In this document: piece after piece, positions 1 to 28,600 of the stretch
Position numbering within the stretch: the first letter of the stretch is position 1
Layout: each line of letters starts with the position of its first letter
Assembly: GCA_000165425.1 (NCBI GenBank)
Contig: CT868174.1
Span: 496,001-545,223 of the forward strand
Source of the DNA: Paramecium tetraurelia
Lineage: Eukaryota
Direction: 5' to 3'
Length of the DNA stretch: 49,223 nt
The notes under the pieces: generated by a model
Database searches by the model: none
What the model saw: only the letters and a program-made list of their open reading frames with translations
Told to the model about the DNA's origin: nothing
Made by a program: the position numbers and the translations under genes

Positions 1-618
1 AATAATATATAGTTAGACAATTGTTTGTAAAATGCCCTAAGGTTTACAAGCTAATTACATAAAACATTTTTCATTCTCACTCATCAAGATGAAGAAATTT
101 GCAATCAGATGAAGGAAGAAAATGAGTACTTATAAGAACGACCATGGGAACATCCACTAACATTTAAGTAGTTACAAGAGCAATTGATATTTTCTATTTC
201 GATTCATGATTTTCAACAATTATTGAGGGAACAAAAATAAAACTTCAATGTGCTATCTTTGGATATGAGAAGTGCTAAGGAATACGAATAGGCTTGCATT
301 TCTGGTTCTTTGTTTGCATTCTATGACAAGAAGAAGATCAATAACATTCAGTTATTAAATTATTTCGAACTGAGAGGATTAGTTGAAGAATAGAGCATTT
401 ATTATGTGGTTGCGATTTGCGATACAGAAAAGCAAAACGTGAACGAAATCATAGATTATTTGCTTAAATAAAGAATCAAACGTCTTGTTCTGTTAAAGGG
501 GGGAATTTAGGCTGCCCTGCTTGATGCGTAGGACATCATTAAGTTTAAATAGAAGGCAGTGTTGCCTCCATGGATAAAAGTGCAAATTGATGAATTAAAG
601 AAAAAAAATATGTAATGA
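1..618 (+). CDS. 3' part of a protein with a C-terminal rhodanese-like domain (possibly TBC1D23/TBCK-type); 5' truncated by the window
   Basis: Frame 1 is open in code 6 to TGA 616-618. Motifs LDMRSAKEYEQACISGS, VVAICD and RLVLLKGG match the rhodanese consensus (D.R...EY..GHI.GS / L.GG). The TBC link is inference only. Confidence 0.7.
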
Positions 619-640
619 AAGATTGATAATATTAATTTTT

Positions 641-2786
641 ATGTTTTAAATTAAGATCACTATGTTAATCCTGTATATCATATCTTGCTTTGAAGGCAAG
701 AATCTTATACCTCTCTGTATCAATATAGGATTGATCTGTACTCAATTTGGCAGTCTTAAATTTCGAATGCACACTGTATTTCGAATTTATGAAACACTAA
801 TTTTGTTTATTTAAATTGCGCTTATTACCTTATATGACTAGCAATTGATTGTTTACAATGTGATTTACATCATCTTATTAGATGAAACAGCAAGATTCAA
901 ATATTCTTTAATTCAAAAGCTTTCATTGCTAGGTATACTGTTCTTATAATGAAGGAACCAGTGTTTTTTATAATAATTTTTATATCATCAAATGTGATTG
1001 AATATTTAAGAAATAGTGCTTTTGCTTTGGGAATTATAATTGTGATGATAAATAAAGGAATTACAAAATAGGGAGAATTTACCAATTTATTATCGAGTAC
1101 TCGTACACAAAGTCCACGAGCATAAGAGACTTAAGGCCTGATGATAGTGGATCCCCAGAATTTAAATTGTATATATATGAATGAATATGTTAAAAGAAAA
1201 TTAGGTAATTAGTAATTAATTATAAATGAAATTGATTCAATAAGTAAATAAAAATTCGATTAGAAAATAAGAAATATTGAATTGTTTGAATTATTAAATG
1301 AATTTGATTTAAAATAATTTATGATCCATGTAAATATTGGATTTCAGATATAATGTCTGATCATACTATTGAGATAACTAAAGATGTAGATCAAAATAAA
1401 ATTCATATTACATTTTAGAATAACAAAGAAAGAGATGATCACCTTAAAAAATCATATCTATATCAAATACTGAAATAAATCTTTCATACTATTTCACATG
1501 AATTTGGAACTTCATTAAATTTTATGTTAGCGATAGCCCAAGTTGCAATAGATAAATATCCAAATCAAAAGTATTATCACTCTTTTCGAAACACATGTGA
1601 AATCATGCATTATTTCGTACTAGATATGGTTGATTACAATGATATTTTGGGGAATTAATTCAAATTGTAATTGGAAGAATTAGATCTCTAAACAATTTTG
1701 GAGTCAGTTACTACGCTGTTTTAGGAGTAGTGCAGGTAAAAGGACTTATAATTGAGTTTTGAAAATCACATTCCAGAGAGCTGGTAAATAATATCTGATC
1801 AAAGGAGGATTAAGTAAATTTTGATCCATTTAATCTCTAACGCCTAGAAGTTTACTTTAAAGGGTTCAATTCTCATAAAGGTGTTAGCCATTAGAGATGA
1901 CTTGATACAATTCTCGGTAACAGATACAGGAATTGGAATAAGCTAAAATGATGAATAAAATCTAAGAAATATGTTGGAGTAGGATTTCAAAGATGAATAA
2001 TATTTGTCATCCAATACTGCTGGATTCGGATTGGGTTGTTATTTGGCTAATAAAATATGTTTGCATTTGTCGAATAAGCAGTTCAAACTTGAATTCAAGA
2101 GGAATGAAGTAGGAACAACATTTTGGTTTTAAGTTCAAAATAATATTTTACCTACTCAAAGTATAGGGAGGATCTTGGGGATTTAATAAATCAATAAACA
2201 TTCTTACATAGATTTGAAGTAATCCTAAATAGAGAGGGCAGTTGGAAAGAAGTTGAGCAGAGTGGCCAGTAAGCCATCGCTCAATTCAAAATCAAGAATT
2301 ATGTCCTTCAGATGTTTAATTGATCCTATAAAGGATTACACGGAAAGTGTGATAAATGAAGAAGTCAATTCAATAGAAAGAAAAGCCAGAACTTGTATCT
2401 TGAATAGGAATATCAAAAAGTCAATGAAATTTCTGATAGTTGATGATGAGATCATTAACATTATTGGATTGCAATTGATTTTGAAAAGAATGAACATTGA
2501 TATCGATTATGTGTTCAATGGGGTGGAGTGTTTGCGGTAGGTGGAACAGAAGAGGTATCTTTATTAAGGGATCTTCATGGATATCAATATGCCTTTGATG
2601 GATGGATACGAAACTACTTAGAAATTGATTTCTCGTTATGGAAATTAAATTAAGATTATTGCTTGTACTGCCTACACTGATAGTGAAACTAAACAACGTT
2701 GTTATGACATTGGAATGAGTTACTTCCTTAACAAGCCAGTGAACATCGTAGAATTATAAAAAATACTTATATAATTTTAATAATGA
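641..2786 (+). CDS. Membrane-bound hybrid sensor histidine kinase/response regulator HK1 (apparent -1 frame break near 1308-1385)
   Basis: Hydrophobic N-terminus; likely intron 933-961; H-box SHEFGTSLN (~1493); N-box HLISNAQKFT; G1 DTGIG; G2 GFGLG; receiver LIVDDE..FMDINMPLMDG..CTA..KPV; TGA 2784-2786. Confidence 0.9.
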
Positions 2787-5115
2787 TATTGCTAATATTT
2801 GCCAACATTTCATCAATCATCTTAGAATTTTGGGAATGCCAATAAATTATTGAATATGTCTTTCTAAGCATAACTCTGTTTATTGATGTACTTCTTATCG
2901 CTTTCTCCTTAAAAAAATAGCAAAACTACTTAACCAGAATGTTACTATTTATTTAGGCTTCAATCCTTTTTTCCGTATTTAAAGATCCAAAGCTTTTAGC
3001 AATCAATGCAATATATCAATGTAAAATGAGGTACTTAATATAATCTTCGAATATAATATTTAATTGCCTCGAATATTCATGTATACCTTTAATTTAATTA
3101 GGCTTTTTGGTATTGATAGCCCTTTTGAGTGCAAAATATGAATTATTCGATGTAATACGTACAGCTCTCTCTGCATTTTTCTTAATTGGATTTTAAGTGA
3201 AAGAACAAATTTCCTTAAAATAAAATTAACAAAAGGGAATTGAAAACCAAACAGACTAATTCCCAATATAGATAGAAACAGATACTATTATAACTTCATA
3301 ACAATTAACATCAAATAATCCAGAAATTTTTCTAGATGATTTCTTAGGTATTGTTCAATCCAATTAGAAGATGAACGATATTTTGTAACAAATGAATTAC
3401 GACGATGTTACGAAGCTCTTGCAAGAAATATAGATCACTAACATAGACTCTAATTCTGCAAAGAAGATGGGAAGATATAAAGATGACTCATTATGGTTTT
3501 TATTGAAAAGGATAATTAATAAAAGATTAGAAATTTATATTTAAGTTTTGGATTATTATCATCCTGCATTTCAAAAATATTTAATTTTGATTCATTATAA
3601 GACTCAGTTTTAAATTCAATTCATATAAGTGAATGAAAGAGACACTTATACCAAAAAGAAATATCTCAGCCAAATATTATACTAGTTATTCAAATCATTT
3701 TCACATGAATTCGGAACATTACTAAACTATCTCTTGGCATTATCTTAAGTAGCAATAGATCAATTCCCTGATCAAGTGGGGTTTTTCTAACCAATAAAAT
3801 CGACAGGCCAAATAATGCATCATTTTGTTTAAGACATGGTTGATTATAGCGATATTTTAAATAAGAAATTCTAGTTGTAATTTGCACCTGTCGATGTGGA
3901 AGACTTACTGCAAGAAGTTATCGGATTCTATAAGTCATAAATTGAAGAGAAAGGGTTGAAAATTGGTTATTAAATTAATCTCGGAAGACAAGCAAAAATT
4001 TTTCGATGGTCGAAGATGCAAGTAGGTATTGAGTAATCTAATTGCAAATGCTTAAAAGTTTACAGTTTAAGGAGGCATCAAAATCACTGTTACTGAGTAA
4101 TCAGGTTTCACTATATTTTCAGTTGAAGATACTGGATTCGGAATGAACTTAGAATCATTTGAAAATTTAAATCACATCCTAGAAAACGAGTTTAAGTCTG
4201 AACAAAAGATTTCGTAACACACTGCTGGATTTGGTTTGGGCTGTTATTTATCGAATTAGATTGCTTTGAAATTATCAAACTTGCCCAAATTAGCTGGTGG
4301 AGGATTACAATATACTAGGCTAGAGAAAGGAATTCGTGTTTCTTTCAGAGTCAAGAATTAGCCATTTGAAATATTGTATACAAGTTGTGACATATCATCC
4401 ATGAAATCTGGGATATTGTTTAATGAAAATGGATATTTCGATTCTCGTTAATCTATCATAGATTTACAACTTACAAATAAGCATAAATCTACAGAAACCC
4501 ATCTAATATTGAATATGAATAGAAAATCTGCTTTATTATCAATTTCATTTTCTCCAAATTAGATAAAATATTAAGTTGAATAAGAATTAAATCAAGAAAA
4601 TGAAATTTCTGATAGATTAAGGAAATGTCAATTTGTTAAAAGAAGAGAAACCTAAAAAAAATCACCTACTTTTGGAGCATCTACTAGTGATGTAAAGGAT
4701 GTCAAAAATTTCAAAGAATAAACGCACATCTTAATTGTTGATGATGAGATGATTAATATTATTAGTCTTAAGATACTGCTTAGTCAATTTAACATTAAAT
4801 GCACTTCTGCTTTTAATGGATTGGAAGCATTAAATAAATTAAAAGAATGTAATAATTAATTGATATATATTAGCTAATGAGCGATTCGATCTGATTTTTA
4901 TGGATGTTAATATGCCTATAATGGATGGGTTTGAAGCCACAGAATAAATATTGAAATTTGATGATAACTTACTAATTGCGGCTTGTACTGCCTTTGCTGA
5001 TGTAGAGACCAAAGCTAAATGCTATTCTGTTGGAATGAAGTATTATATCAACAAACCAGTTACAAAATTAGAACTCTTGAAATTATTGAATCACTTAAAT
5101 TTAATTATATAATGA
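2783..5115 (+). CDS. Membrane-bound hybrid histidine kinase HK2 (apparent +1 frame break at ~4001-4005)
   Basis: ATG 2783 opens a TM-rich frame; H-box SHEFGTLLN; N-box NLIANAQKFT; DTGFG; GFGLG; receiver LIVDDE..FMDVNMPIMDG..KPV; 25-nt intron 4849-4873; TGA 5113-5115. Confidence 0.9.
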
Positions 5116-7444
5116 TTAAACATAGAAAATAGGCCATACTAGGGATGTACATTCTGCAACTCATTTATTCTACTCTAGAATGCACTCGAGTTCCCATTTT
5201 GAAACTCATTTTGCTTTTAATCAGCTTAGTTATAAGCATATTCTAAATAGTACTTTTCACAAAATGCAATAAATGGAATATATACACTCAATTCGCCATC
5301 AATATTATGAGTATTTTCGCCAAATAGAGTGATCAATTCATGATACTATAATCCCTTGTAGGATTTACAATTTTTATGCAAATTGATCAAAAAAGATGGC
5401 ATATAAATATTCTTGCTTGTTCAAGTAGTATTGGAAAATTATCATAGTCCATGTAACCCTACTCTGTATATATTCATAAAATAATGAAGTCCAATCTTAT
5501 TTGATGACAATATTCACGATCATGATTCTCTCCTATTTTTCTTGGGCTACCAAAGTGTAGAAACTATAAAAAGAGCAAAGCAAAGGATCTTTGCTTACAT
5601 CTCGAGTGCCCAATACGTTGAAGTCCCTCGTTTCTTTGGAGGATATACATTTTATAGAATAAAGAGCTATTGTTCTTGAAAATTCAACTACCCTTGAAGT
5701 GAGAACCTTTGCCAATGAACTCAGAGAATTGTTAATAAGAGACGAGGTTTTGGAAGACAACTTATTGGATCACATGAAAATACTAAAGGTAGACAAACAG
5801 ACCTAAAGAAACCTAAATTAAAAAATAAAGGGAATTAGTATGCGTTAGCTTATAAACAAATGTTAAATCCTACAGAAGACTGCAGAGATAGTAATAATAA
5901 AAACGAATTTCATATAGTTGGAATATTATTAGTTAAAGTTGAAATTTGAAAGAGATGTGATTATGTTAAAGTTTGAAGAAATCAAAGAGTTTGCGAAATA
6001 CATAAAAAAAAATTCGTGCTATGCATTGATGAATAAATTGTTTCAATCCTTCAGTCACGAATTCGGAACATTATTGAATCAGATTGCTCTCAATGCCTAG
6101 AATGGAATAGCCCAATTTCCATCTATGAAGGAGCAATTTGATTCCATTTATAATTGTGTAGTTATGATGAATAACATGGTCAAAGATTTAAAGGATTTTC
6201 ATTAATTACGCAGTAAAACATTTCAACTCGAGATTGTTGATGTAAAGATTGATGACATATTTGCTGAGCTCTCAAGCTTATTCAAATAATAAGCGACATA
6301 AAAAAAGCTATCCCTTTATCTAGTGAATCGAGTAAAAACGACTTTCAAGTAAGATGAATAAAGAATTAAATAAATACTGTAAAATCTTATTTAGAATGCT
6401 ATTAAATACACAAATTAGGATGGACACATTTATGTTACTGCAGAGAAGGAAGATGACAAAAGAATAAGGTTTTCTGTTTTGGATTCAGGTATTGGAATAA
6501 CTGAAAGTGTTGCTTCTAATATCGAAAAAATGCTGGGTAATGATCTGATTTTGACGTCAAAACTTTCAGAAGGGGCAGCTGGATTGGGTTTAGGATTGTT
6601 GAATTCAAATTATTTAATCAAACACTTGTCATCTTTCCAACAAGCACATAAAGAACACTTATAATTTAAATCAAAATTAGGAGATGGCACTAAATTTTGG
6701 TTTAATATTTGGAAATATCAAGTGTTGGATTCATCGGAAAGTTAATTTGAATCAAAATCAATAAAAATGATTGACAAGAAGGTATTCCTCCACTAGAAGT
6801 CCATCATTGCACCACCTCTTTCCTGCATGGCCTAGAATCCTAAAAGTTGTCCTTCATAAATTAGGAGATTGACTCCAAGTAGATCTTGCCAAAATAGACG
6901 ATAGCCTTAAATATTTTTCCCATCTAATATAAAGGATGAGAACATTATGATAATGGAAGAGGATGACAGAACCATCTCAGATGACCCTAAACCAAATAAT
7001 TTACCAAATCATTAACCAAGTCATTTACCAGGTCTTACGGCAAGATTACCATCTATGGGCTCACCTTAATGTTAATATGTTAAATTACTCCTGGTTGATG
7101 ATGAACCAGCTAATTTATTTCCTCTAAAGATTATGATTAAAATGCTTGGTTTTGAGAGTGACATAGCATTAAGTGGATATTAGGCTATTCAATAGGTGGA
7201 ATCAAGATTAAATTAAAAATGTTAATATCGTTTAATTTTAATGGATATCAACATGCCTTAGATGGATGGATTTGAAACTACAAGATCAATTAAATAGATT
7301 TAACCAGAAATTACAATTGTAGCTTGTTCGGCATTCAGTGACATGTAGACTAAATATTAAGCCCAGTTGCATGGGATGTTGGGTTATCTTGAAAAACCAA
7401 TAAATAAAGAAAATTTATAGCAAATTTTGGAAATGTATTTATGA
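5112..7444 (+). CDS. Membrane-bound hybrid histidine kinase HK3 (intact frame)
   Basis: ATG 5112 (alternative ATG 5145); small intron near 5425-5447; SHEFGTLLN, NLIQNAIKYT, DSGIG, GLGLG; receiver LLVDDE..FMDINMPQMDG..KPI; TGA 7442-7444. Confidence 0.92.
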
Positions 7445-8764
7445 TCATTATTATTTATGCAAATCCTTGCCTCTCTTGATAGCTTAATCAAATAATGATT
7501 TCATTCCTGGTTCTTATTAAATCTTCAATGCCTCGAAGTAAGATGCAGCAGCCTCTCCATACTCCTTCAATCCCTCATATGCTTAACCTTCAAAGTAATA
7601 GATCTTCACCCAATCTTTCTTAACATTCCTAGCCTGTTTGCAGGTTGTTAGTACATCCTTATATTTTGATAATTTCAATTAAGCATTTGCTAAGTTGGTG
7701 TAAATCTTCACAATTTCATCTCTATGCTGTTCAACAATCTATTTAGATTTCTCGATTATTTCACTATATTTTATAATAGCCTATTCATATTGTTCGCTTT
7801 ATAACAATTTATTGGCCTCAACCTTTTCAGTGTTGATTTCATTATACACATCCTTAATTTATTCATCAGTTAGTTAAACTGGGGGAGAAGGAATTTGTGC
7901 TTCCTTTCTCAAGGCAAACTCCCTATAATATTACACGCAATCCCATTTCTCATTTTATACTGCTAAGTCTAAAGGAGTTTACTTTAGATTCTCATAATTG
8001 ATATCAGCACCTTGTTTAATCAAAGTTTATGAAAATTTCAATAATCCTTTTTCAGCGCATAAATGCAAGGCTGACCATCCATCAGGATCTTTGATATTCA
8101 CATCTACTTTTTCAGGGAATTCTTCAAATATTGTATTGAATAACTCTTCATTATTTTAGTCAATCAGTAAATGTAATAAGGAGGGCATCTACTCTTAAAC
8201 GATATTTAAGTCTGCTCCTTTCTTTATCAAATGAAGAGCACTCAAATTTTATTAGTATGCCACTGCAAATGAGACCGGAGTTCCAAAATTAGACAAGGCA
8301 TTGATATTGGCACCAACAGAGAGTAATAGTTCTATCATTGGGATGGCACTTTATTATGCGGCCAAATGAAGTGCTGTGATAGTGTTTCTTTAATAATTGA
8401 CATCCACATGATGGACATCAATCAAGTATTACACAATCGATAAATGATTATGTTGAACAGCAATTAAGAATGGATTGTTTTTCTCATCATCTAATAAGCT
8501 TACATCTGCTCCTTTCTTCACTAAAAACTTGAACACTTCGAGATCTCCTCTTGAGGCTCCAAAATGAATAGCCTTCTTTCCCTTCCCCTCAGATATCGTA
8601 TTAATGAATGTTCTAATGGGAACTTTCTCATTCTCATTTCCCCTCTTGCGTTATTTAACATACAATAGATACTTTTTAATAGTATCAATGTCTGATGTGC
8701 TAATTTATGTGAAATATTCTTCGATGAATTTCTTTTCCTTCTCTATTTCTTTAATATCACTCAT
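7445..8764 (-). CDS. Ankyrin-repeat plus C-terminal TPR protein
   Basis: ATG 8764; ankyrin motifs AIHFGASRGD, TALHLAAQ and GWSALHLCAEKG; TPR helices EANKLL..QYEQAI and WVKIYYFEGQAY..EAAASYFEAL; stop 7447-7445. Confidence 0.88.
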
Positions 8765-8778
8765 TAATAATTTATTAT

Positions 8779-11515
8779 ATGAATTAATCGTAATTTTTGC
8801 AATCCTTAAACTTTGATCCACTCCGAAGTCCACCATTAAGAGAAATTGCTTAAAGACATAAAGTTTATCTCAATTAATAGCTAGAGAGCAACTATGTGCG
8901 GTTTGTTGATCGAATCTAATGATTTTTGTCAATGCTGTGGCTTGGGAATTCACACTCACCCTATTTCGCTGAAGGCAAACATCATCAATTTAGCCTTTTT
9001 GGGTCAAGGCATACCGCTGTTTTATAATATCACTTTTCTACTCATTTTGCTGACATTCATATTATTACTTATATTTGGTCTGCCAACCATCATTTTTAAT
9101 TTTTTAGCTGAAAATTGCATAGAACAAACCAATGAGGCTTATAATATATTTATTACACAAGGTTGTTCTAAGAATTGTCCTCAAGAACAGGATGATTTCA
9201 AATTAATACAACAACTCATTTCTAATAGTGATTGTACTGTCATTTGCCAACACTACTAGGAATTGTGTATAGCAACTCTGTTATCAGAAATGTCATTCAC
9301 TAATAAGCAATTGGAAGATGACCTAAAAATCATATAGTCTTTCTTTGTATTCGGATCTGTGATTTTTATAAAGATTTATCTTGTTTTAATTAGGGAGAAG
9401 CAGAGAATCATCGAGGCTGAGTGTGATTAAGAGTTGATATCTCCATCAGATTTCACGGCCATGCTGAATCATTTACCAGAAGAAGATTACGATGAAAAAG
9501 AGTTAGCCACAGCAATAGAGTAATATTGCCAGAAAATCGATAGTTCAAATAAATATGAAGTAATTAAAATTAATATTGCATATGATATCAAATCATTTGT
9601 ACTCAAAAGCAGAGAGAAAATTAAATTAGAAAAAATCTTGGCAGAAGAACAAAAATATTATATCAAAAATTAGAAATATAAGAGAAATAAACAGGAAATT
9701 GAGAAAATCAAACTTATGGTAGAACAACTGAAAAAAGAATTGGCCAATATAGAAATTGAAATTGAAAATGGGTCTTATAGAAAAACGACATCCGTTGCTT
9801 TCATCACATTTCAAACCAAATAATGTATCATTATTAAAATATGTAGAATTATAAAAATTAATACAACAAACCAAATTATCATATTGGGAATAGTTACTAA
9901 TGCAAGTTAAGAGATTGATTTAAAATAAGGATAAAAGAGGATTCTATTTCAAAGATAACTTAATATCAATTTGCAGAGCCCCTGAACCAGACGACATATT
10001 TTGGGAGAATTGTGGAATTGAAAATTCCATTAAAATCAAGAGAAAATTTATTAGTTGGATAGTGGTCTTTGTTTTGTTGGGAATCTCCTTTGCCACTCTC
10101 TATGGACTTGAATATTTGCAAGTAAATAATCATCTTATTAATTTAAGAATCAATATCTTTCAAATGACTTAGATTTTATTACCAAAACATCATTATCACT
10201 CTTAAAATCCTTAATAATCACTATTGTTGATGCTCTCATTTATTATTTCATAACCTTATTAGCTAATCATGAAAGACATGTAACTAAAACCCATCAAGAC
10301 ACTTCAGTTGCTTAAAAATTGTGTTGTGTACAATTTATTAACTCTTGTTTTCTTTTACTTTTGATTCATCTAATTGGAGTTGGATAGAAAGGGGATTTCA
10401 TGGAGAAATCAAAGTATGCAATCTAAAAATAGGGAGGAATTGCAAATGATTTACTGTTTGTTTGTTGTATGAATGCCCTATTCACTCCGATCACAGCCTT
10501 TTTTAACCCTATTTATTTCATCAAGAAATTACAGCAACTTTTTATAGAATCCAATAAGAGTCTGACTTAATTAGAAGCCAACAAATTATTTGAAGGACCT
10601 TAAGTGTTGTTGTATGATCAATATGCATTTATATGCAAGACAACTTGGATCACGTTGTTTTTAGCCCCATTGACTCCAATTTGTATCTTTATTAACTGGA
10701 TTGGGTTGTCGATGTATTATTGGATATAAAAATATTTGTTATTGAGAAGAAATAGCAAACCTCCATTTCAAAGTAGTCATTTAGACAGGGAAATGCTAAC
10801 ACTTCTAGACTTAAGTCCGCTATTGTTGGCTGGGATGTAGTATTGGATTGATGAAATCTATGATTCCAATTATCTTAGTCATAGTATAAATATTGGGACG
10901 CTAGTGATTGCAGGATTGGAATTGGTCTTTCCCTCCTATCGAATTCATCAAATCTTGTATAGAAAATAATTGGAAGATATAGAGAATTAAAGATATATTG
11001 ATGTTCACCTTCGGTTTACAACTGATTACGATAGAACTAATCCGTTGACGAGCGAACAAGCAACCCAAGAATTTATGAAGAAGAAATTTCAATAGTTTAA
11101 CAAATAGATGACTTATAAGAGGAATTCTAGAATGCAATCAACCAAAAGATCTTTGAGAGAGTATGTTCAGAAAGGAATCTAGAGTGCGAATATATCAAGA
11201 ATTCAAATTCTAAAGAGAAAGCTTCAGATTGCTTATAAATTAAAGATGTTTCAAAATATTTAATAGGAAACCAAGTATAAGGAATCTGATCGTGAAGACT
11301 CCATTCACACATTTAACTTTCCAGCTTATTAAAGAGCTCCACAGTACAACTTTTCAAGAGTAATTAATCAGTTTCCCAACTATTGCCAATATAATTCAGA
11401 TCTCACGAGTAGAAGCAATTCTATTTCCTCAACTATATAATTAAACACATCAAAATATTAATTAACAACAAAACGAAATTCTTAAATCTAATCTTTTAGA
11501 GCTCCATTATAATGA
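8779..11515 (+). CDS. OSCA/TMEM63 (CSC1)-like multi-pass channel, paralog A
   Basis: Intron 8863-8884 plus two further small introns; motifs SDFTAML, AFITFQT and RAPEPDDIFWEN (OSCA/RSN1_7TM signature), followed by multiple TM helices; TGA 11513-11515. Confidence 0.8.
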
Positions 11516-11595
11516 CAATATAAATGATTATTTTTCTTCAAAAATATACAATATATATTAAAGTTAAATGAGTTGTAAACAAGATTTCATGAGCA

Positions 11596-14286
11596 TCATA
11601 AATTTTCAAATTTGTTTGGGTTGAGAATTTTAGAGAAATTGTAGTTCTACGCTTCTTGAAATTTATTATTGTTGTCATTATCAGTGGAGATATTTAATGA
11701 ATTCTTCCTGAAACTAATATTCTTATTGATTATCATATATTCAGGTGTTTGAGTATAAATAGGTTCCTCCTATTCTTGAGACATCTCTTCATCTTGTTAC
11801 TGCTAAATCACAGCAGCAATCTAACGAGCCTTCCTTATTAGTTTGATTTTCCTCATCATGGAGATTTTGAGCTTCAATGAAATGGTATTCCTCATAAATT
11901 GAACTCCTCCCATCTAAGCGTATTTATAGAGGGCTGTTTTGGTGTCCATCACTTGAGGCTAAACGTAATTTGAATCGACTAGGGTTTTTGCTTATATGAA
12001 TTCTAATATAGCGTTCTGTTATGTTAATGGATTGGTTCTATCATAATCAGTTGGTAATTTCAAATAGACATCCGAGTATCTGTCTTTCTCAGTAGATATA
12101 TTACTCTTCTTATCAAATAGCTTACTGATTCTAGTGGCTGGAGTAATCAATTCCAGACAAGAGAAACCTAAGCTAATAAAATTGACAGTCAATATGGCTG
12201 AACTAGAACTGAAAATATAGTCTGCCCACATTTAACCAACAGCCAATATTATAGGACTTAATTCAAATAAATTCATCATTTCTCGATTCAAATGAAAACT
12301 TTAAAAAGGAGGCTTGGAATTCCTTCTCAATAATAAGTACTTTTAGATCCAATAGTAGAGTAGCAATCCGGAACTGCAAAATAGTAAAGAAATTGGCAGC
12401 AAAGGTGCAAAGAGTAGTGAGATCCAAATAGATAAACATATGTATGAATATTGCTCGTATAAAAATACCGAGGGTCCTTCAAATATTTTATTTGCCTCTA
12501 TTTGGTTAAAATTGTTATCGACTTTAAAGAAGTATTGCTGGTATAACTTATAGAGATAGAGTGGATCCAAATAGGCCAAAATAGGAACAAAGAATGAATT
12601 CACAATTAACAAAAAGAATGCATCTGAAATTACCCCTCCTTATCTGGAATATGCATATGTTGATGCATAATTGTCAGTCTTAACATTTTCAAAATTATAC
12701 ACCAAAATATTTATAACTTTAGTGAAGATTCCTGAATTAAAAAATTAAACAATTGCCAATTTAGTTGCCACAGAAACATCATGATGAGTCTTGGTAAAAT
12801 GCTTTTCTGATAATCCTAATAACTTGATAAAATAGTAGATGATCTAATTTATAATTGTGATTATTAATGAGATAACCAGCGTTATTATTATCAGTATAGC
12901 ATCATCATAGGATGAAAGGTTCTGGCTTTACAGAATATTCAAACCTAGTAAAATAGTGAAGGAAGCTCCTAAAATGAATATCGTAATAAAGAAATTCAAT
13001 ATTCTTTTTTGTAATTGATACTGAAAGTTAAACCCACAATTTTCCCAAAAGACATCATTCGGCTCTGGAGCCCTACAAATTATGATAATTCTATTTTTAA
13101 AGTAGAATCCCCTCTAATCTTATCGATTAATGAAGTAATATTTGAATCTAATCCATAACTCTTCCCAGTGAGAAAGTTTAGTTTAATCCAAAACCGATTA
13201 CAATTCTACATATATAAATGTGTCTATACATTCTTTAGTTTAGAAAGTCACAAATGCAACTTAAGTCTAGTGTGCATATTATTAATTTTCAACTTCATTC
13301 TCAATCTTTGTTAATTTTTCATCTAAAATTCCTATCCTTTATTTCAATTCATTAAGCTAGTTGATTTTCATAGATCGTGGATAACGACCATATTATTTAT
13401 AATAATTCTCAATTCTTTCTATTTTCTTTTCCAGACTCATCTTTTCCCTACTGAATTCAACAAATGAAGTAATGTCATATGCTATTATTATCTTGACAAT
13501 TTCGTATTACCCGCTCTCATCAAACTAATAACAAAAATCGAGCAACGCATCCTTTAATTCTGCTTCATTATATTCATTTATAGGTAGATTGGTCATCATT
13601 GCTGTGAAATCTGAAGGCGATACAAATTCCTAATCACAAATCCTTACTGTTCTCCTCTATGATATCCTTACTCTAATCATTGCAAACTTAAACACCAAAA
13701 TACTGCATAAAACTAATATGGATTAAACTAATTTCGAAGTCTCATCAAACTACTTGTTTGCGAATGACATTTAGAGAACTGATGTTCCTAGACAAATATC
13801 CCCAATTTTGGCACATATAGTCTCACAATCATTTGAATGTAATAATTTAGTGATAGAAGAAAAATCAGTCGAATTTTAAGGACAGTTTTTATTGCAAAGT
13901 CCATTTAATGAAAGCTTATAAAATAAATTTTCTTCTGAAATGCAATCGTGATTTCCTAAATTTGCTATTAAAGATGGTATCCCAAGTAGAGTAAATAAAA
14001 TAAGCACTATCAATATTAATTACGAAGTCATCTCAAAAAATAAAGGCATTCCCTGACCCAGAAATGCCAAATCCAATCTATTTTAGCATAATGAAATTTC
14101 CCTTTGTTGTATAGGCTATCCACAGCATGGGCAATGATCTGATTTTTACTCATTTTCTCCACAAATGGACGCTTTCTAATTAGTAATAATGCTTACCTAA
14201 TGAACTTTAGCCAGGTCAATACTGGCTGGTATGCGAAAAGGATCAAATGTTAAAGAATTCTTAGCATCAATCTTAATTTAATTCAT
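11596..14286 (-). CDS. OSCA/TMEM63-like channel, paralog B
   Basis: ATG 14286; 21-nt intron after HQ; CPCCG, SDFTAMM, AFVTFQT, RAPEPNDVFWEN and LPTDYDRTNP shared with paralogs A and C; stop 11598-11596. Confidence 0.8.
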
Positions 14287-14334
14287 TTTTAAACTCCTAT
14301 TGATTTAATATTATTAATTATATTAATTATCAAA

Positions 14335-17261
14335 ATGCAGGAGAACTCCAAAGAATATGATCCTTTTAAGATTCCAGCTGACACTAACATCTCTATTAAA
14401 CATAAAGTATAGGAATATAATGACTTACAAGAAAGCAACAAAATGTGGTACTCCAATAGCAAAATCTGAGTTATGTCCTTGTTGCGGTAGAGAAGTTGAA
14501 CAAGAATAAAAAGAAATTGGGATTTCTCCTATCGATTTAATTTATTTGGGCTAAGGAATCCCATTGTTCTTTCTGTTTCTTAAATAGATGATAGTAGTGA
14601 TATTAATAGTTTTTGGGATTATGGGGATATATTCATTGATTACGAATAGCATAAGTGATAATTGTCTAGACAACAAAAGTGACCTTCTGACCCTCTATTA
14701 AAATGGATTTTGTGAATAAAATTGTCCACTTCCTTTAGATGAGGACTATTTGAAAATAATTTCAATTCTAAAAACAGAAGACTGTTAAATAGTTTGCAAT
14801 CAATTTTCGAATGTTTGCACAACCATCTCGTCTACTAAAATAGCTTTATCCAACAAATAGCTAGATAAGGATTACAAGGAAGTTCAAGCAATCCTTGTAT
14901 TGTGCTCCATTATTTTGTTTAAAATCATACATGTGTTATTCAGAAGACATTAAAAATTAACATAAGATGAATTAGATAGAGGCTTGTTGTCAGCTTCAGA
15001 TTTCACAGCAATGTTGACTAAATTACCTTAAAATTAATATACTGAATCTGAATTAAGGGAAAGCCTTTCAAAATATTGTAAATAAATTACGCAACTTTAA
15101 CCTGAATAAGAATTTGAAATAGTTAAAATTATAATTGCCTTCGACATTTTTGATTACATCAACATCATAAGAACAAAAACTGAATTGGAGAAGCAGTACT
15201 AAATTAATGAATCATTTAAAAATATTAATACTCAATATCCTCCTTAAGTGACTGCTGAAACCTAAAAAGAATTATTGTTACAAATTGAGAAGAAAGAGGA
15301 AGAACTATCTAAAATTGATAATGATATTCAGAAGAAATAATTCACATAAACAACACAGGTTGCATTTGTAACCTTCTAAACAAAAAAATGTATTGAACAT
15401 AAATATTAACTTAGAATTGGATACCATTGTTGAATACACTAAATTAACCTCCTGGCAACTAGTTTTGACAGCCATTTTAAATGTTTTTGGAAAGACCCTT
15501 AATAAAGGTTTTTACTTTAAAGATAAGCTAATATAAATTACAAGAGCTCCTGAACCAGATGATGTGTTTTGGGAGAATTGCGGATATAGTTTAAAGTACA
15601 AAATATAGCAAAGAACTTTAAGTTGGCTCATTACATTAGTGTTACTTGTTACTTCATTTTTTATTCTATTTGGATTAGATTATGTTTAAAATAACTATCT
15701 GAAAGATCAAAACATTAATTATGTTCTATTGACAATCATTTCTTTGATAATCTCATTGATAATTTCAATTATTAATGCAATGATTTATTTTAGCATTACA
15801 ATTTTGGCCAACAAAGAGAAGCATTACACAAAAACACATTATGATGTCTCAGTTGCAACTAAATTAATCTATGTTTAATTTGTGAATTCAGGATTGCTAA
15901 TTATGGCAACAAACATCTTAGTTTAAGGATTGTAAAATCGAAATGATTTGAATGAAGATATTGAATTACAAAGTTTGGCATTCAGTAGACCAGGAGGAGT
16001 AGCATAGGATGCCTTTATCATTACTTTAATAAATGCACTAATAACTCCTTTAACTTCATTTTTTGATATATTTTATATGAGAAAACTACTCCAACAAAGA
16101 AATTTAGAGAAAAGTACAACCAACGCAATCACTTAAACAGAGGCAAACACAATTTTTGAAGGACCACAAGTTTTATTATATGATAACTATGCATATGTTT
16201 GTAAGACAGTTTGGATTACTTTATTTTTTGCTCCATTGGTACCTATTTCTTTGTTATTTTGTATATGTGGTTTGTTTTTATATTATTGGTTATAGAAATA
16301 TCTACTTTTAAGAAGAAAATGTAGACCTCCACTTCAAAGTAGTCATTTGAACAGTGAAATGTGCAATATTATTAATTTCAGTCCCATCTTATTAGCTGCA
16401 GGATAATTGTGGGTAGACTTTGTATTTGAATCAAATGCAACAACCAAGATTGTAAATTTTGTTTCAATTGGGTTTTCTGGATTAGAATTCTTTTTCCCTT
16501 TTGAAAAGTTAGCTAAAAAGTTTTTGTCTTGGCCAGAAGATCCAAATGAATTGAGTAAATACTCTGAGAAATGGCACGAATTACCAACGGACTACGATAG
16601 AATAAATCCAATAACTAGATAATAAGCTATATAAAATTATGTAAAATTTAAGTAATCGGTTGATAATAAAGGGAACAATTAAAATAATCAATAAAATGAC
16701 CAAGTTTTGTAAGCATTAAGATAATATGCATTTGAAGGAGGAGAATACAAATTCAAATCTCATTTGATTCATAAATTGAAAGCAGTTACTAATTTATAAA
16801 CTAATAAACAAACCAATAATATTCCTATTAATACAATTGAAATGCAACCTAAATCTACAAATTAATTCTAATAATAAGAAGATAAGACGGCATTGCTTGG
16901 ATAATAATAATACATCTCACAAATTTAAAGGATGCAATAATAAATTGAGCAACCTAATTAAAATCAGAATAATTATCCTGTATATCCCCCTTAATAATAA
17001 TATTATTCATATGATCAAAATAATTAGCAGTAGCCATATTATCAATAAAATCAATAACAATAATATTAGCAACCTTATTAGCAAAATTAGTTTCCAAATG
17101 CTTAAATGCCATACTATAATCAAGATCCTCGAATGTATCAATAATAGCCTGGACAAAATCCATAATAACCTGGACAATACCCATAATAGCCTACTCAATA
17201 TCCATAATAGCCTGGTTAATATCCATATTAATAATATCCAAATAACTAATATCATTATTGA
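14335..17261 (+). CDS. OSCA/TMEM63-like channel, paralog C, with a Q/P/Y-rich C-terminal tail
   Basis: First two introns at the same positions as in A and B; CPCCG, RAPEPDDVFWEN, LPTDYDRINP; TGA 17259-17261. Confidence 0.8.
17141..17224 (+). repeat. Coding minisatellite, 4 x 21 bp (QQPGQYP-like heptad)
   Basis: ataatagcctggacaaaatcc / ataataacctggacaataccc / ataatagcctactcaatatcc / ataatagcctggttaatatcc. Confidence 0.9.
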
Positions 17262-25653: not shown

Positions 25654-28600
25654 ATGAGTAAAATTTTGAAATAAATGTTGTGGTTAGTTTCGATGATGAG
25701 TTTTACGGTTAATGGGATAATTGACATGTATAGAAGTTATTTATTTATAGACAATCTCATGTGAAAGGATGTTTGGATGCAAGTTGTACAAAACTCTGTT
25801 TATTGGGAGTTGCTGATTGTAGTAAGACAGTGCCAGTGTGTGAATACGGTTATTTCTTATTCAAGGAGAAATATTGTGTTAAATGGTATGGTTTGTATCA
25901 ACTATTTTAAAAGTCCTGGATTCTCGTCAGATATGCGATTTGATTGCATGGACTGTTTAGAAAACCCGACCTCGTGGGCTGAAAACAGGTAATGCAGTTA
26001 CGGATATGAAATAACAAATGGGGATGCTTTGAGCGGTGTTTTCCAATAATAAAACGATTCCGCATCAAGTTTATATTTTATTGTAGCCTCTAATTAATAA
26101 CCAACTAACCTGGTTGATCGCCAGGTAGATCTACCATATGTAGCACAATTGTGTGAGGGGTGTGACGAGTTTTGCGATGATGATACAGATGAAGCATGTA
26201 ACTTTTTTGAAGATTATAATAACAATGACGTTGACCCTCAAGTTGGAGTTTCTTGCTTAGATGGCTATTACTTTGAGAATGATAATTGTTTAAAATGTAG
26301 TCGCTATTGTATGCAATGCGATGAAAACGAATGTCAATAATGCTTCAAAGGCTATCTATTGAAGGAGGGTGGCACTTGTTTGGAGTGTCCAATTGGATGT
26401 TTGGATTGCAATTTTGGATTTGATGGCATTACGATAGAATGCTATGAATGTTAACAGGAAGGATTTGGTGAATATTTTTTGCCTAGTTTATTTTTGGCGA
26501 CTTGTGAAACTTGTGAAAGTGGATGTTCAAAATGTGAATATATGACCTATGACGATACTATTTACCCGACATACTTGACTAGAGGTTTGGAGGTACCATT
26601 TGAAGAGGATGTTAATAAATATATTAAGAGATGCAGATAGTGTAGAGGATCAAAATCATTTATTAATGCCAGTGGAAGAAGTTGCTCGAATTGTAACATA
26701 GCAGATTGCAAATAATGTTACTAGGATTTGGGCGGTGGAGTTACAACTTTGGATCCTGATTTCACTCCTAAGGATGGAGACTTTGATATCCTCTGCTATA
26801 TGTGTTCAGTTGGCTATCAGTTGAGTGCAGATAAAAAGAGTTGCACTACTTAAACTGATCCCAATTGTGCAATACTCAATTCCGATGGTACTTGTTAATA
26901 ATGTGCCAATGGGTTAATGTTTGATTCTACTACCACTCCAGGGACATGCACAACCACAAAGTGCAGTTCAAAGATATTGAATTGTGTGGATTGCTTTTCC
27001 TATGATGAACCTGATGCCGATGTAACATATGATGAAAATGGGATTCCAGTCAGATCTTAAAAAAAATAAATATAGTGTACTAAATGCAGTCTCGGTTATT
27101 ATCCTGATTTCTTTAGTGGAAAATGTGTTAGATGCAAATAAAATTGCTAGCAATGTTGGTAGAATACAGATTCATATAACCTTACTTAGATTAATTCCGT
27201 TTATTAAGTCTATTCTTAAACGGCCAAATCATCCTTCCTAAATGAAGATTTAAATGATCCATAATGTACATTATGTTACAATGGTTATGACTTATACAAT
27301 AACGAATGTTAAGGATGTGGTGATGGTTGTCTATTAGAGTAAGTCTCAATGTGTGTTTTCGAATTTGATACTGCTTATTGTTCAAAATGTCCTCCAGGTT
27401 AAAGGTCCTTAGTAAATGATAATAGTGACTGTGCTGACTGTCCACTCTATTGCGAAGGTTGTAGAGAACGAACCCAAAGTGAGATCTACAATATCAACCC
27501 ATTATTCAACCCAAGTAATTCCGATTTTCAAAAGTATTCCAATCTTTGTTACAAAATTATGAAAAATTTTGATGTAACCAAAAACTTATATCTCGACACT
27601 CTCACAAACATGCCCACTGCTTGTAATTATCCAGGCACTTCAAAGAAATGCTACTACACTTCAACTATCAACTTTGAATTAAATTGTGATGATGATGTAA
27701 CTGTCCCCGATGCCTTGGACTTGTCATCAATCTTCAAAGGGAAATCATCAACTGCTACTCTCATATTGAAAGACATTGAAAAATATGAGAACTACTTGTT
27801 ATTGAACAAAAATGCTGTATAGGAAGTCACTCTTCTAATTAATATTCATGGCTCAGAGTGCAAATTCACCAAACCTACTCAATTTAAGACCTAGCTCTAA
27901 TAGAATGTGTTTTCATTATTAAAACTGAATGTACACTTTACCTCCTCTACATCTGCCACCTTCTATTAAATAGGACATATTTCCTTCTCTAATATCAATA
28001 ATTTGAGATTTGAAAATATTAAATTTGCATATAACGATGATATAAAGTCAAAGATTAAAGATTTCGGTATAACTTTAAAAGGCAAATCAAGTGCTTTCAC
28101 ACTAATCAATTCTGAAATCTCAAAGGAAGATTCAATAGTTTAGGGTATGTTCTCCTTCAATTTTACAGGAGTTCAAAAACTTACTTTAGATTAGGTTGAA
28201 TTTTTATACTTGTCACCTATTGATCAATTCCTTAATTAAAATTTCACCTAGGAAAGCACTTACACTTTGTCATTAAATAAAGTCAAATTTACTAGATGTC
28301 GATTCCTGAATAACCAACAATTATTTGATTAGAATCCTGTCAATAATACTAAAATAACCATCAATGATTTCACCCTCTTTAAATCAGAGTTTATTGGAAC
28401 CAATATTTTCGGATCTCTAAATGGACAGACTTATGCAAAATTGGACTTGACTATTACAAATCTTAAGATCCAATTATGTACATTCTTGTAGTCCAGTTTT
28501 ATTATAAGCAATTAATTAATAGCTAGCTCAATTTCAAACGTTGATGTTTACACAAGTTAATTCGTTGGTTCATATATTTTTATGCTGAATCACATAAACT

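What the first reader, a model, noticed from the sequence alone, without database searches (positions are those of the whole stretch)
641..7444. Three hybrid histidine kinases chained by operon-like ATGA stop/start overlaps
Seen in sequence: the HK1 stop (TGA 2784-2786) overlaps an ATG at 2783 that opens the HK2 frame, and the HK2 stop (TGA 5113-5115) overlaps an ATG at 5112 that opens HK3. Both junctions read TAATGA with no intergenic DNA. For HK2 the next in-frame ATG is ~150 nt later and would remove N-terminal hydrophobic segments. Established: 4-nt ATGA overlap is the hallmark of bacterial translational coupling and viral termination-reinitiation, and ciliate genes are regarded as monocistronic. 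Inference: either a polycistronic, coupled two-component sensor array, or the AT-rich last codons of each gene double as promoter/5' UTR for the next. Caveat: a Gln(TAA)-TGA ending creates an ATG automatically, so the signal is that it is in frame with the next gene twice in a row.
Basis: partly seen in the sequence, partly recalled or inferred. Interest (0 to 1): 0.8.

Follow-up and report, generated by a model that had tools for sequence, protein, structure and literature searches.

The report
Overlapping tandem Paramecium histidine kinase genes
Three old sensor-kinase gene copies in a Paramecium genome sit head to tail with no spacer, each stop codon overlapping the next start codon; the RNA data fit three separate messages packed very tightly rather than one bacterial-style operon.

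Summary
TAATGA lies at 2781-2786 and at 5110-5115. In each, the TGA ends one hybrid histidine kinase, and the overlapping ATG is in frame with the next.

The ATG at 2783 is very probably the true HK2 start. Two homologue models, from P. pentaurelia and P. tetraurelia, begin at this same Met. Residues 1-52 are as conserved as the rest of the protein. Three out-of-frame ATGs lie before the next in-frame ATG.

The ATG at 5112 is the probable HK3 start. Two more distant paralogue models begin at the same position and have Leu where the window has its second Met. The closest orthologue, however, is annotated from the 5145 equivalent.

RNA-seq is thin, at depth 0-3. Coverage drops to near zero after each stop and rises again inside each gene. 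RNA contigs from an independent study break at both junctions. No read or contig was shown to bridge either junction. This favours three separate mRNAs whose ends overlap the neighbouring coding sequence, not a polycistron. No transcript start or poly(A) site was mapped.

The last 30 nt of HK1 and HK2 are extremely AT-rich, as Paramecium initiation regions are. Published work already notes gene and UTR overlap in Paramecium, so this is an extreme instance of a known kind of compaction.

The parts
641..2786 (+). HK1, a hybrid histidine kinase. The 3' two thirds (1344-2786) are secure. The 5' part is uncertain.
   Evidence: Pfam finds HATPase_c (1.6e-15) and Response_reg (4.4e-23) in 1308-2783. 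Orthologue models P0129 and P0130 are 72-73% identical and align from 1344/1347 to 2783, ending on the same ...ILIQFQQ. Upstream, the frame shifts at about 964 (RNA contig X3 lacks one base) and at about 1324 and 1343 (orthologue alignment). ATG 641 opens a hydrophobic frame (641-949) with only weak likeness to the family N-terminus (20-23 identities). X3 contig 664-1194 shows this stretch is transcribed.
2781..2786 (+). Junction 1: TAATGA. HK1's last Gln codon and its stop overlap the HK2 start ATG (2783-2785).
   Evidence: Sequence; frames; tblastn places residue 1 of P0156 and of P0001 at 2783.
2753..2782 (+). The last 30 nt before ATG 2783, inside the HK1 receiver-domain coding sequence. 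Inferred initiation region and 5' UTR of HK2.
   Evidence: G+C is 1/30. Only 0.1% of 30-nt windows in 641-7444 are that low. The function is inferred from published initiation positions, not measured here.
2783..5115 (+). HK2, a hybrid histidine kinase of 768 aa once the intron and one extra base are removed.
   Evidence: Pfam domains. The model has no internal stop. P0156 (767 aa) aligns over its whole length in three frames.
3982..3982 (+). One extra base in the window that breaks the HK2 frame. Probably an assembly error.
   Evidence: The base is absent from 2 of 2 X21 reads and from the X3 contig (depth 9.15 of 9.15). Removing it restores a frame collinear with P0156.
4849..4873 (+). HK2 intron, 25 nt, GTAAT...TTAG.
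   Evidence: Sequence. The 25 nt are left out of the X3 RNA contig.
5110..5115 (+). Junction 2: TAATGA. HK2's last Gln codon and its stop overlap ATG 5112-5114, the probable HK3 start.
   Evidence: Sequence. Residue 1 of P0013 aligns at 5112, and residue 1 of P0008 at 5145.
5082..5111 (+). The last 30 nt before ATG 5112, inside HK2 coding sequence. Inferred initiation region and 5' UTR of HK3.
   Evidence: G+C is 3/30 (1.6th percentile), against 10/30 for the 30 nt before ATG 5145.
5112..7444 (+). HK3, a hybrid histidine kinase of 769 aa if it starts at 5112.
   Evidence: Pfam finds HisKA 4.2e-05, HATPase_c 1.2e-17 and Response_reg 1.2e-22. The model has no internal stop. Homologues P0008-P0015 are 61-84% identical.
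5425..5447 (+). HK3 intron, about 23 nt, GTAG...ATAG. The donor could instead be at 5428 or 5419.
   Evidence: Candidates are listed. The homologue tblastn alignment jumps from 5420/5423 to 5444/5447. No RNA confirmation.
1..618 (+). Upstream gene with a rhodanese-like domain. It also ends TAATGA (613-618), 22 nt before HK1's ATG 641.
   Evidence: Pfam Rhodanese 4.7e-05; sequence.
7445..8836 (-). Convergent ankyrin/TPR gene. Its stop (7445-7447 on the minus strand) abuts the HK3 stop (7442-7444).
   Evidence: ORF. Pfam Ank_2 2.6e-41 and TPR_1 5.7e-08. Well expressed on the opposite strand, and X3 contig 6152-8224 runs across both gene ends.

Best explanation
Three anciently diverged paralogous hybrid histidine kinase genes lie head to tail in the macronuclear genome of a Paramecium aurelia-complex species. 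All intergenic DNA between them has been squeezed out, and each TGA stop shares three bases with the next gene's ATG.

Each gene is most likely still its own transcription unit:
- RNA polymerase II would start HK2 and HK3 mRNAs some 10-26 nt upstream of their ATGs. That places the start inside the extremely AT-rich last codons of the preceding receiver domain.
- Each upstream mRNA would be polyadenylated a few tens of nt past its stop, inside the first codons of the next gene.
- Neighbouring mRNAs would then share a short stretch of sequence on the same strand, and the same DNA would serve as both coding and regulatory sequence.

Shown here: the overlaps exist, ATG 2783 is a conserved protein start, ATG 5112 probably is too, and RNA coverage restarts in each gene.

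Inferred, not shown: the positions of the transcript starts and poly(A) sites, and any promoter role of the terminal codons.
For: (1) HK2 start.
- P0156 (P. pentaurelia) and P0001 (P. tetraurelia) both begin at the Met equivalent to 2783.
- Residues 1-52 are 41/52 and 34/52 identical, against 264/340 and 219/323 for the rest of the protein.
- P0001 has Leu where the window has its second Met.
- Three out-of-frame ATGs lie between 2783 and 2939.

(2) HK3 start.
- P0013 and P0015 begin at the 5112-equivalent position (P0015 one residue later), with Leu at the 5145 equivalent.
- The 30 nt before 5112 have 3/30 G+C, against 10/30 before 5145.

(3) RNA. Summed depth of three stranded oligo-dT runs, my sums:
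- HK1: 1.9-4.2 per 300-nt bin over 1501-2700, then 0.11 and 0.29 over 2701-3300.
- HK2: 1.6-3.8 over 3301-4800, then 0.3-0.9 over 5101-6000.
- HK3: 1.1-3.1 over 6001-7200.
In the independent run X3, the listed contigs end at 2719 and restart at 2801, and end at 5056 with the next listed one at 5512. Their depths are 4.7 then 14.2, 6.1 then 9.2, and 5.

(4) AT-richness. The last 30 nt of HK1 and HK2 have 1/30 and 3/30 G+C (0.1 and 1.6 percentiles of the locus). HK3, which has no tandem follower, has 5/30.

(5) Literature.
- Arnaiz et al. 2017 (PMC5485702; passages found): mean 5' UTR 21.7 nt, mean 3' UTR 44.6 nt, UTRs overlap, and genes 'sometimes overlap'.
- Preprint 10.64898/2026.09.19.752804 (passages, section 10): the middle half of mean initiation sites lies at -26 to -11, the initiation region is AT-rich, and promoters may overlap the upstream neighbour's 3' UTR.

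(6) Conservation of the arrangement.
- HK2-type and HK3-type models share contigs in P. primaurelia and in two P. sonneborni contigs. Their accessions are adjacent or one apart.
- On a third P. sonneborni contig an HK1-type model is followed directly by an HK3-type model.
- The C-termini ...ILIQFQQ (2 of 2 close HK1 orthologues) and ...LNHLNLIIQ (6 of 6 HK2-type models) are kept.
Against: - No transcript 5' end, cap site or poly(A) tail was seen at either junction.
- Depth on the kinases is only 0-3 per run, and the reads are 58 nt long.
- The coverage pattern is 3'-weighted. A 5'-co-terminal set of longer read-through mRNAs would therefore look much the same in the raw reads.
- The tool itself warns that a hole in contigs proves nothing, and five X3 pieces were not listed.
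- Almost no reads cover 2720-2830, where the HK1 mRNA must still run. So the dip is partly an end or composition effect.
- For HK3, the closest orthologue model (P0008) starts at the second Met.
- Most homologue models start elsewhere: 4 of 6 HK2-type and 5 of 8 HK3-type start further downstream or in other frames. The annotations are inconsistent.
- No DNA of another species was available, so conservation of the ATGA overlap itself is untested.
- The AT-richness argument rests on two junctions and one control.
Confidence: 0.7

Rival explanations
1. Polycistronic expression. One long mRNA carries two or three kinase ORFs. Ribosomes terminating at TGA reinitiate at the overlapping ATG, as in bacterial translational coupling or viral termination-reinitiation.
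For: - Two consecutive ATGA overlaps fall on real start codons.
- There is no spacer for a conventional promoter.
- The 3'-weighted RNA-seq cannot see 5' ends.
Against: - Coverage collapses just after each stop and rebuilds within each gene in three runs. The listed X3 contigs break at both junctions although their flanks have depths of 14.2 and 6.1, and of 9.2.
- The reinitiation motif TGGGA of caliciviral TURBS (motif recalled, not from a call) is absent from the 120 nt upstream of both junctions.
- In P. tetraurelia, adjacent cap sites fall in different genes in over 99% of cases, and nearly all genes initiate within 50 nt of their ATG (PMC5485702; preprint).
- Two literature searches found no report of polycistronic mRNAs in Paramecium or other ciliate macronuclei.
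- Reinitiation after an ORF of about 700 codons is inefficient in eukaryotes (general knowledge).
Confidence: 0.05
2. HK2 starts at the overlap, but HK3 starts at its second Met (5145). Junction 2 would then be an ordinary 29-nt spacer, and its ATGA would be a by-product of a Gln-TGA ending that happens to be in frame.
For: - The closest orthologue model, P0008 (83% identical), begins at the 5145 equivalent.
- The in-frame, open condition over 11 codons has a chance of about 0.26 (my arithmetic).
- All four consecutive plus-strand genes here end in A-TGA, so an ATG arises at every stop.
- The HK3 frame is open up to 5001 anyway.
Against: - P0013 and P0015 carry an N-terminal extension of the same length (one residue shorter in P0015), starting with Met, and have Leu at the second-Met position. 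P0013 shares 5 of 11 residues with the window's extension.
- The sequence before 5145 has 33% G+C, unlike the AT-rich regions before 641, 2783 and 5112.
- There is no ATG between 5112 and 5145, so a transcript starting upstream of 5112 would meet that ATG first.
Confidence: 0.25
3. The overlaps are chance, or an artefact of a faulty assembly or of decaying pseudogenes. The real starts would be the later ATGs, 2939 and 5145.
For: - The window carries at least four single-base frame breaks in HK1 and HK2.
- With TGA as the only stop, long spurious open frames are everywhere.
- The joint chance is about 0.03.
- My RNA data did not re-read the junction bases.
Against: - RNA from the same strain lacks the extra bases at 964 and 3982. 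The X3 contigs show 0 other differences over the pieces listed, and the corrected HK2 is intact.
- The termini on both sides of each junction match homologue termini exactly in position.
- HK2 residues 1-52 are conserved like the rest of the protein.
- All three genes are transcribed.
Confidence: 0.03

Closest known systems
Overlapping genes and UTRs of the compact Paramecium macronuclear genome (Arnaiz et al. 2017, PMC5485702; preprint 10.64898/2026.09.19.752804)
   Same: - Same genus.
- Tiny UTRs: mean 21.7 nt at the 5' end and 44.6 nt at the 3' end.
- The authors state that UTRs overlap and that genes sometimes overlap.
- They suggest that a core promoter may overlap the upstream neighbour's 3' UTR.
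- Initiation regions are AT-rich.
   Different: - Here the coding sequences themselves overlap by 4 nt, twice in a row. The inferred initiation region lies in conserved receiver-domain codons rather than in a UTR or spacer.
- In the passages I read, neither paper describes CDS-CDS ATGA overlaps or gives their frequency. I did not read either paper in full, nor their supplements.
Bacterial and archaeal ATGA stop/start overlap with translational coupling in operons
   Same: The same four-base overlap between same-strand neighbours of related function (two-component sensors).
   Different: - Coupling needs one polycistronic mRNA. None was seen here, and coverage restarts in each gene.
- The organism is a eukaryote with cap-dependent scanning.
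- TGA is the only stop codon in this code, so any 4-nt overlap must read ATGA.
Viral termination-reinitiation (calicivirus VP1/VP2, influenza B M1/BM2; recalled from general knowledge)
   Same: An overlapping stop and start (AUGA or UAAUG type) in a eukaryotic translation system.
   Different: - It requires a bicistronic RNA and an upstream element that tethers the 40S subunit.
- The recalled TGGGA motif is absent from the 120 nt upstream of both junctions.
- The upstream ORFs here are about 700 codons long.
Ciliate expansion of membrane-anchored hybrid histidine kinases (70 in Tetrahymena thermophila; Kabbara et al., PMC6324907, passages found)
   Same: - Hybrid architecture of kinase core plus receiver.
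- Several N-terminal hydrophobic helices and no recognisable sensor domain.
- A large lineage-specific family.
   Different: The passages I read do not cover Paramecium kinases or their genomic arrangement. Here the copies form conserved tandem arrays with no spacers.

Membership tests
Hybrid histidine kinase (HisKA - HATPase_c - receiver) | HATPase_c catalytic domain | tested here: met
   Pfam PF02518: HK1 1.6e-15, HK2 2.7e-13, HK3 1.2e-17, all above the gathering score.
Hybrid histidine kinase (HisKA - HATPase_c - receiver) | C-terminal receiver (Response_reg) domain on the same polypeptide | tested here: met
   PF00072: HK1 4.4e-23 and HK3 1.2e-22. HK2's domain is split by the intron, giving 0.0083 for the first part and 8.6e-18 for the second.
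Hybrid histidine kinase (HisKA - HATPase_c - receiver) | HisKA dimerisation and phospho-acceptor domain with the conserved His | tested here: inconclusive
   PF00512 is below its gathering score of 26.9: HK3 23.9 bits, HK2 17.3 bits, and HK1 has no hit at E <= 0.01. All three translations show an SHEFGT string at the expected place. Reading that string as the H-box is from recall.
Hybrid histidine kinase (HisKA - HATPase_c - receiver) | N-terminal membrane segments (ciliate type) | tested here: met
   Crude Kyte-Doolittle scan with 19-aa windows above 1.6. HK2 window starts: 1, 21-27 and 95-107. HK3 window starts: 21-35. No dedicated predictor was run.
Polycistronic operon with translational coupling | Stop and start codons overlap (ATGA) | tested here: met
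Polycistronic operon with translational coupling | A single mRNA spans both cistrons | tested here: inconclusive
   No bridging contig among the X3 pieces listed, and near-zero read depth across both junctions in three runs. Depth is low, and five X3 pieces were not listed.
Viral-type termination-reinitiation | Upstream 18S-complementary element (TURBS motif 1, recalled as TGGGA) within about 100 nt of the stop/start | tested here: not met
   No TGGGA in the 120 nt upstream of 2783 or 5112.
Separate, overlapping Paramecium transcription units | Own transcript start about 10-50 nt upstream of each ATG | not testable with these tools
   No cap-selected data were laid. The one read-laying run used oligo-dT RNA-seq.
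Separate, overlapping Paramecium transcription units | Own poly(A) site shortly after each stop | tested here: inconclusive
   Coverage falls after each stop, but no A-tailed loose ends were reported at 2786-2900 or 5115-5250.
Separate, overlapping Paramecium transcription units | AT-rich initiation region directly upstream of the start codon | tested here: met
   G+C of the 30 nt before each ATG: 4/30 (641), 1/30 (2783) and 3/30 (5112), against a locus mean of 29%.
Separate, overlapping Paramecium transcription units | The overlapping ATG is the conserved protein start | tested here: met
   HK2: 2 of 6 homologue models start there and none starts upstream; residues 1-52 are conserved. HK3: 2 of 8 models start there and 1 of 8 starts at the second Met.

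The most novel reading that the evidence does not exclude
A ciliate nuclear gene array in which part of HK2 and HK3 synthesis comes from read-through bi- or tricistronic mRNAs. Ribosomes would terminate at TGA and reinitiate at the overlapping ATG, giving stoichiometrically coupled sensor kinases. This would be bacterial-style translational coupling in a eukaryotic nucleus, kept since before the aurelia whole-genome duplications.
Probability: 0.04. Interest if true: 0.8.

Novelty: new member of a known kind. Interest (0 to 1): 0.3.

Why it matters
If the inferred layout is right, two conserved receiver-domain tails also act as core promoter and 5' UTR for the next gene. The first codons of that gene would in turn hold the upstream gene's 3' UTR and poly(A) signal.

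That makes a compact natural test bed for how Paramecium places transcription starts and ends with no non-coding DNA at all. It would also let one ask how double duty constrains protein evolution.

It also flags a practical problem. Most homologue models in other aurelia species are truncated at the N-terminus: 4 of 6 HK2-type and 5 of 8 HK3-type. One possible cause is gene callers avoiding overlapping coding sequences. The window's own assembly also carries single-base insertions that break these genes.

It does not overturn the view that ciliate genes are monocistronic.

Tried and rejected
- **Whole genome of the window.** None is held, so I could not measure a genome-wide frequency of ATGA overlaps.
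- **DNA of other Paramecium species.** The one metagenome scan with an HK3 alignment returned 80 loci at no more than 43% identity. These look like ordinary prokaryotic hybrid kinases; I did not open them. No Paramecium locus appeared, so conservation of the junction at the DNA level is untested. The other DNA collections hold only prokaryotes, phages and plasmids.
- **Frame changes read as introns.** I first took the frame changes at about 3966-3987, 933-961 and 1330-1389 for introns. RNA and orthologue alignment show that most are single extra bases in the window. An intron at 933-954 or 933-961 remains possible for HK1. However, the X3 contig 664-1194 keeps that stretch.
- **ORF listing as a gene map.** A stop-to-stop ORF listing of the whole window is useless for this. 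With one stop codon, every frame has long ORFs. I used it only for a few long genes.
- **Earlier notes of this scan.** There are none for this genome, and the word search gave only bacterial ATGA cases.
- **Literature.** Searches for polycistronic or overlapping genes in Paramecium and ciliates found nothing specific. Johri et al. 2017 is not in the library.
- **Paralogue reads.** The loose ends at 4894 and the A>C at 4920 come from a paralogue that reads ...EKFNVIF..., as P0001 does. They are not evidence of splicing at HK2.


Full report
**What the window is**

The window has 25-35% G+C. It reads as long genes only when TAA and TAG code for Gln. Its proteins have their closest relatives in Paramecium species of the aurelia complex: P. 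pentaurelia, primaurelia, sonneborni, octaurelia and tetraurelia. One intron confirmed by RNA is 25 nt long and of GTA...TAG type.

**The observation**

TAATGA stands at 2781-2786 and again at 5110-5115.

- The frame ending at TGA 2784-2786 encodes HATPase_c and a receiver domain.
- The ATG at 2783 opens a frame that leads, through one frame break and one intron, to HATPase_c and a receiver domain ending at TGA 5113-5115.
- The ATG at 5112 lies in a frame that leads, through one intron, to HisKA, HATPase_c and a receiver domain ending at 7444.

The three proteins are old paralogues. They are 29-39% identical, and blastn finds no likeness between the HK2 and HK3 gene spans.

- The next in-frame ATG of HK2 is at 2939.
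- The skipped stretch holds two hydrophobic segments.

One detail needs correcting. The HK3 frame is open from 5001 and has an earlier in-frame ATG at 5019.

**Is it more than chance?**

With TGA as the only stop, open frames are cheap. A random frame stays open over 52 codons with p = 0.39, and over 11 codons with p = 0.785. An A precedes 38% of TGAs. All four consecutive plus-strand genes here end in A-TGA: the rhodanese-like gene at 616-618, then HK1, HK2 and HK3. Two in-frame, open ATGs given such endings have a chance of about 0.03 by my arithmetic. The sequence pattern alone is therefore weak evidence.

**Homologue evidence for the start codons: HK2**

- I saw six HK2-type models: P0001-P0004, P0007 and P0156.
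- P0156 (767 aa) and P0001 (752 aa) begin at the Met that corresponds to 2783. The other four begin at Mets further inside, and none begins upstream.
- Residues 1-52 are 41/52 identical to P0156 and 34/52 to P0001. The rest of the aligned exon is 264/340 and 219/323 identical. So this stretch is under the same protein constraint as the rest.
- P0001 has Leu where the window has its second Met.
- A transcript starting after 2783 would meet out-of-frame ATGs at 2836, 2856 and 2886 before reaching 2939.

I take 2783 as the real start.

**Homologue evidence for the start codons: HK3**

- I saw eight HK3-type models.
- P0013 and P0015, which are 65% and 61% identical to the window, begin at the position of 5112 (P0015 one residue later). 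Both have Leu at the position of 5145.
- P0008, the closest at 83%, begins at the 5145 equivalent.
- The other five begin further downstream or with unrelated N-termini.
- tblastn places residue 1 of P0013 at 5112 and residue 1 of P0008 at 5145.
- The 30 nt before 5112 have 3/30 G+C. Those before 5145 have 10/30.

I take 5112 as probable, at roughly two in three.

**RNA evidence**

Three stranded oligo-dT RNA-seq runs of the same species label were laid on 1-9000, together with the contigs of an independent run, X3. X3 has the 25-nt intron spliced out, so it is RNA.

The kinases are weakly expressed, at depth 0-3 per run, on the expected strand. Summed over the three runs (my sums), the depth per 300-nt bin is:

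| Region | Summed depth |
|---|---|
| 601-1500 (HK1, 5' part) | 0-0.4 |
| 1501-2700 (HK1, 3' part) | 1.9-4.2 |
| 2701-3000 | 0.11 |
| 3001-3300 | 0.29 |
| 3301-4800 (HK2) | 1.6-3.8 |
| 4801-5100 | 2.5 |
| 5101-6000 | 0.3-0.9 |
| 6001-7200 (HK3, 3' part) | 1.1-3.1 |

Most of the 2.5 in the 4801-5100 bin comes from paralogue reads: twelve reads have a foreign 5' part at 4894 and carry C at 4920.

The X3 contigs show the same sawtooth. Their depths are 4.7 then 14.2, 6.1 then 9.2, and 5. The listed pieces end at 2719 and resume at 2801, and end at 5056 with the next listed piece at 5512. The X3 depth in bin 2701-3000 (4.98) equals what those two pieces contribute, so nothing else was laid there.

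A single tricistronic poly(A) RNA would not give three separate rises. Read-through as the main source of HK2 mRNA would keep the junction at least as deep as the HK2 5' part.

This evidence has limits:
- Depth is low.
- The pattern is 3'-weighted, so 5' ends are not seen.
- The tool warns that holes in contigs prove nothing.
- The last 60-100 nt of HK1 and HK2 mRNA are themselves hardly covered, so end or composition effects contribute to the dip.
- No cap site or poly(A) tail was seen.

**What is known about Paramecium transcript ends**

- In P. tetraurelia, 5' UTRs average 21.7 nt and 3' UTRs 44.6 nt. UTRs overlap, genes 'sometimes overlap', and adjacent cap sites fall in different genes in more than 99% of cases (PMC5485702; passages found).
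- A 2026 preprint places the middle half of mean initiation sites at -26 to -11 from the ATG. It finds the initiation region more AT-rich than its surroundings. [quoted passage not shown]

Applied here, HK2 and HK3 transcripts should start inside the last codons of the preceding gene. Those codons are strikingly AT-rich: 1/30 and 3/30 G+C in the last 30 nt of HK1 and HK2. These values are the 0.1 and 1.6 percentiles of 30-nt windows in the locus. HK3 is followed by a convergent gene and has 5/30.

The tails are also well kept:
- The two close HK1 orthologues end in the same ...ILIQFQQ.
- All six HK2-type models end in ...LNHLNLIIQ.
- The HK3 tail varies more.

This fits double duty for the tails, but it rests on a very small sample.

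**Age and conservation of the arrangement**

HK2-type and HK3-type models lie on the same contig in several cases:
- P. primaurelia: accessions ...324 and ...326.
- One P. sonneborni contig: ...693 and ...694.
- A second P. sonneborni contig: ...224 and ...226.

On a third P. sonneborni contig, an HK1-type model (...114) is followed directly by an HK3-type model (...115) that starts with the long N-terminus. So the tandem array predates the divergence of these species, and probably a genome duplication. Whether the zero spacer is equally old could not be tested, because no DNA of other species was within reach.

**Local context**

Other same-strand or facing gene ends in the window have short but positive spacers (these assume the first ATG is the start):
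- 22 nt between the rhodanese-like gene and HK1.
- About 52 nt at 17261/17314.
- About 200 nt at 31926/32130.
- 57 nt between the divergent starts at 8836 and 8894.

The HK3 stop abuts the stop of a convergent ankyrin/TPR gene, giving TGA-TCA at 7442-7447, and one X3 contig runs across both. The region is tightly packed throughout, and the kinase array is its extreme.

**State of the genes**

The window has single extra bases that break frames:
- At 964, missing from the X3 contig.
- At 3982, missing from 2 of 2 reads and from the X3 contig.
- Near 1324 and 1343, implied by an exact orthologue match in the intermediate frame.

The X3 pieces listed otherwise show no base differences from the window. 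So these are most simply assembly insertions, not decay. With base 3982 and the introns removed, HK2 (768 aa) and HK3 (769 aa) have no internal stop.

The 5' end of HK1 is unsettled. ATG 641 opens a hydrophobic frame that is transcribed. Joining it to the rest needs a 22- or 29-nt intron at 933, and the X3 contig does not splice it. The orthologue models start further in.

**Verdict**

The best reading, at about 0.7, is three monocistronic but physically overlapping transcription units. The inferred initiation regions lie inside the upstream coding sequence, and the poly(A) regions inside the downstream one. This is an extreme case of a compaction already described for Paramecium.

Translational coupling on a polycistronic mRNA has no positive support, and I put it at about 0.05.

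Cap-site and poly(A)-site mapping, or long-read cDNA, would settle the question.

Noticed in passing
window 964, ~1324, ~1343, 3982: Single extra bases in the window break the HK1 and HK2 reading frames. RNA lacks the bases at 964 and 3982. Orthologue alignment implies the ones near 1324 and 1343. All are insertions, which suggests a systematic assembly error. The source's own gene call for HK1 (P0128, 477 aa from ATG 1353) is truncated accordingly.
   Followed up: partly
window 7442-7447: The HK3 stop (TGA) and the stop of a convergent, much more highly expressed ankyrin/TPR gene (TCA on the plus strand) are directly adjacent. The two mRNAs must therefore overlap antisense at their 3' ends. 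One RNA contig (6152-8224) spans both.
   Followed up: partly
window 613-618 and 641: The upstream rhodanese-like gene also ends TAATGA, only 22 nt before HK1's ATG. All four consecutive plus-strand genes end in A-TGA.
   Followed up: partly
window 4894-4950: Twelve RNA reads (3, 6 and 3 in the three runs) match only from 4894 onward and carry C at 4920. Their foreign 5' part reads like the P. tetraurelia-type paralogue (EKFNVIF). So an expressed paralogue cross-maps on the HK2 receiver domain.
   Followed up: no
window 7498-7667: Partial-frequency base differences (for example 16 of 70 reads at 7598) and loose ends at 7636 and 7656 in the ankyrin/TPR gene. They suggest reads from a close paralogue or a second allele.
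   Followed up: no
window 8894-17258: Three paralogous membrane-protein genes with PHM7_cyt and Anoctamin-like matches (OSCA/TMEM63-like) lie side by side: 8894-11512 (+), 11599-14799 (-) and 15252-17258 (+).
   Followed up: no
window 25765-31923: A 2053-codon open frame rich in Cys-X-X-Cys repeats at its N-terminus has no Pfam match. It may be a large surface or secreted protein.
   Followed up: no
window 2783-5115 vs 5112-7444: In the window, HK2 and HK3 span exactly the same length, 2333 nt (ATG to ATG is 2329 nt). Yet they are only 29% identical as proteins and share no DNA-level likeness. This is probably coincidence.
   Followed up: partly
homologue models P0002-P0004, P0007, P0009-P0012, P0014: Many annotated homologues in other aurelia species lack the N-terminal membrane region, or carry unrelated N- or C-termini. 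This suggests systematic mis-annotation of these tightly packed kinase genes.
   Followed up: partly
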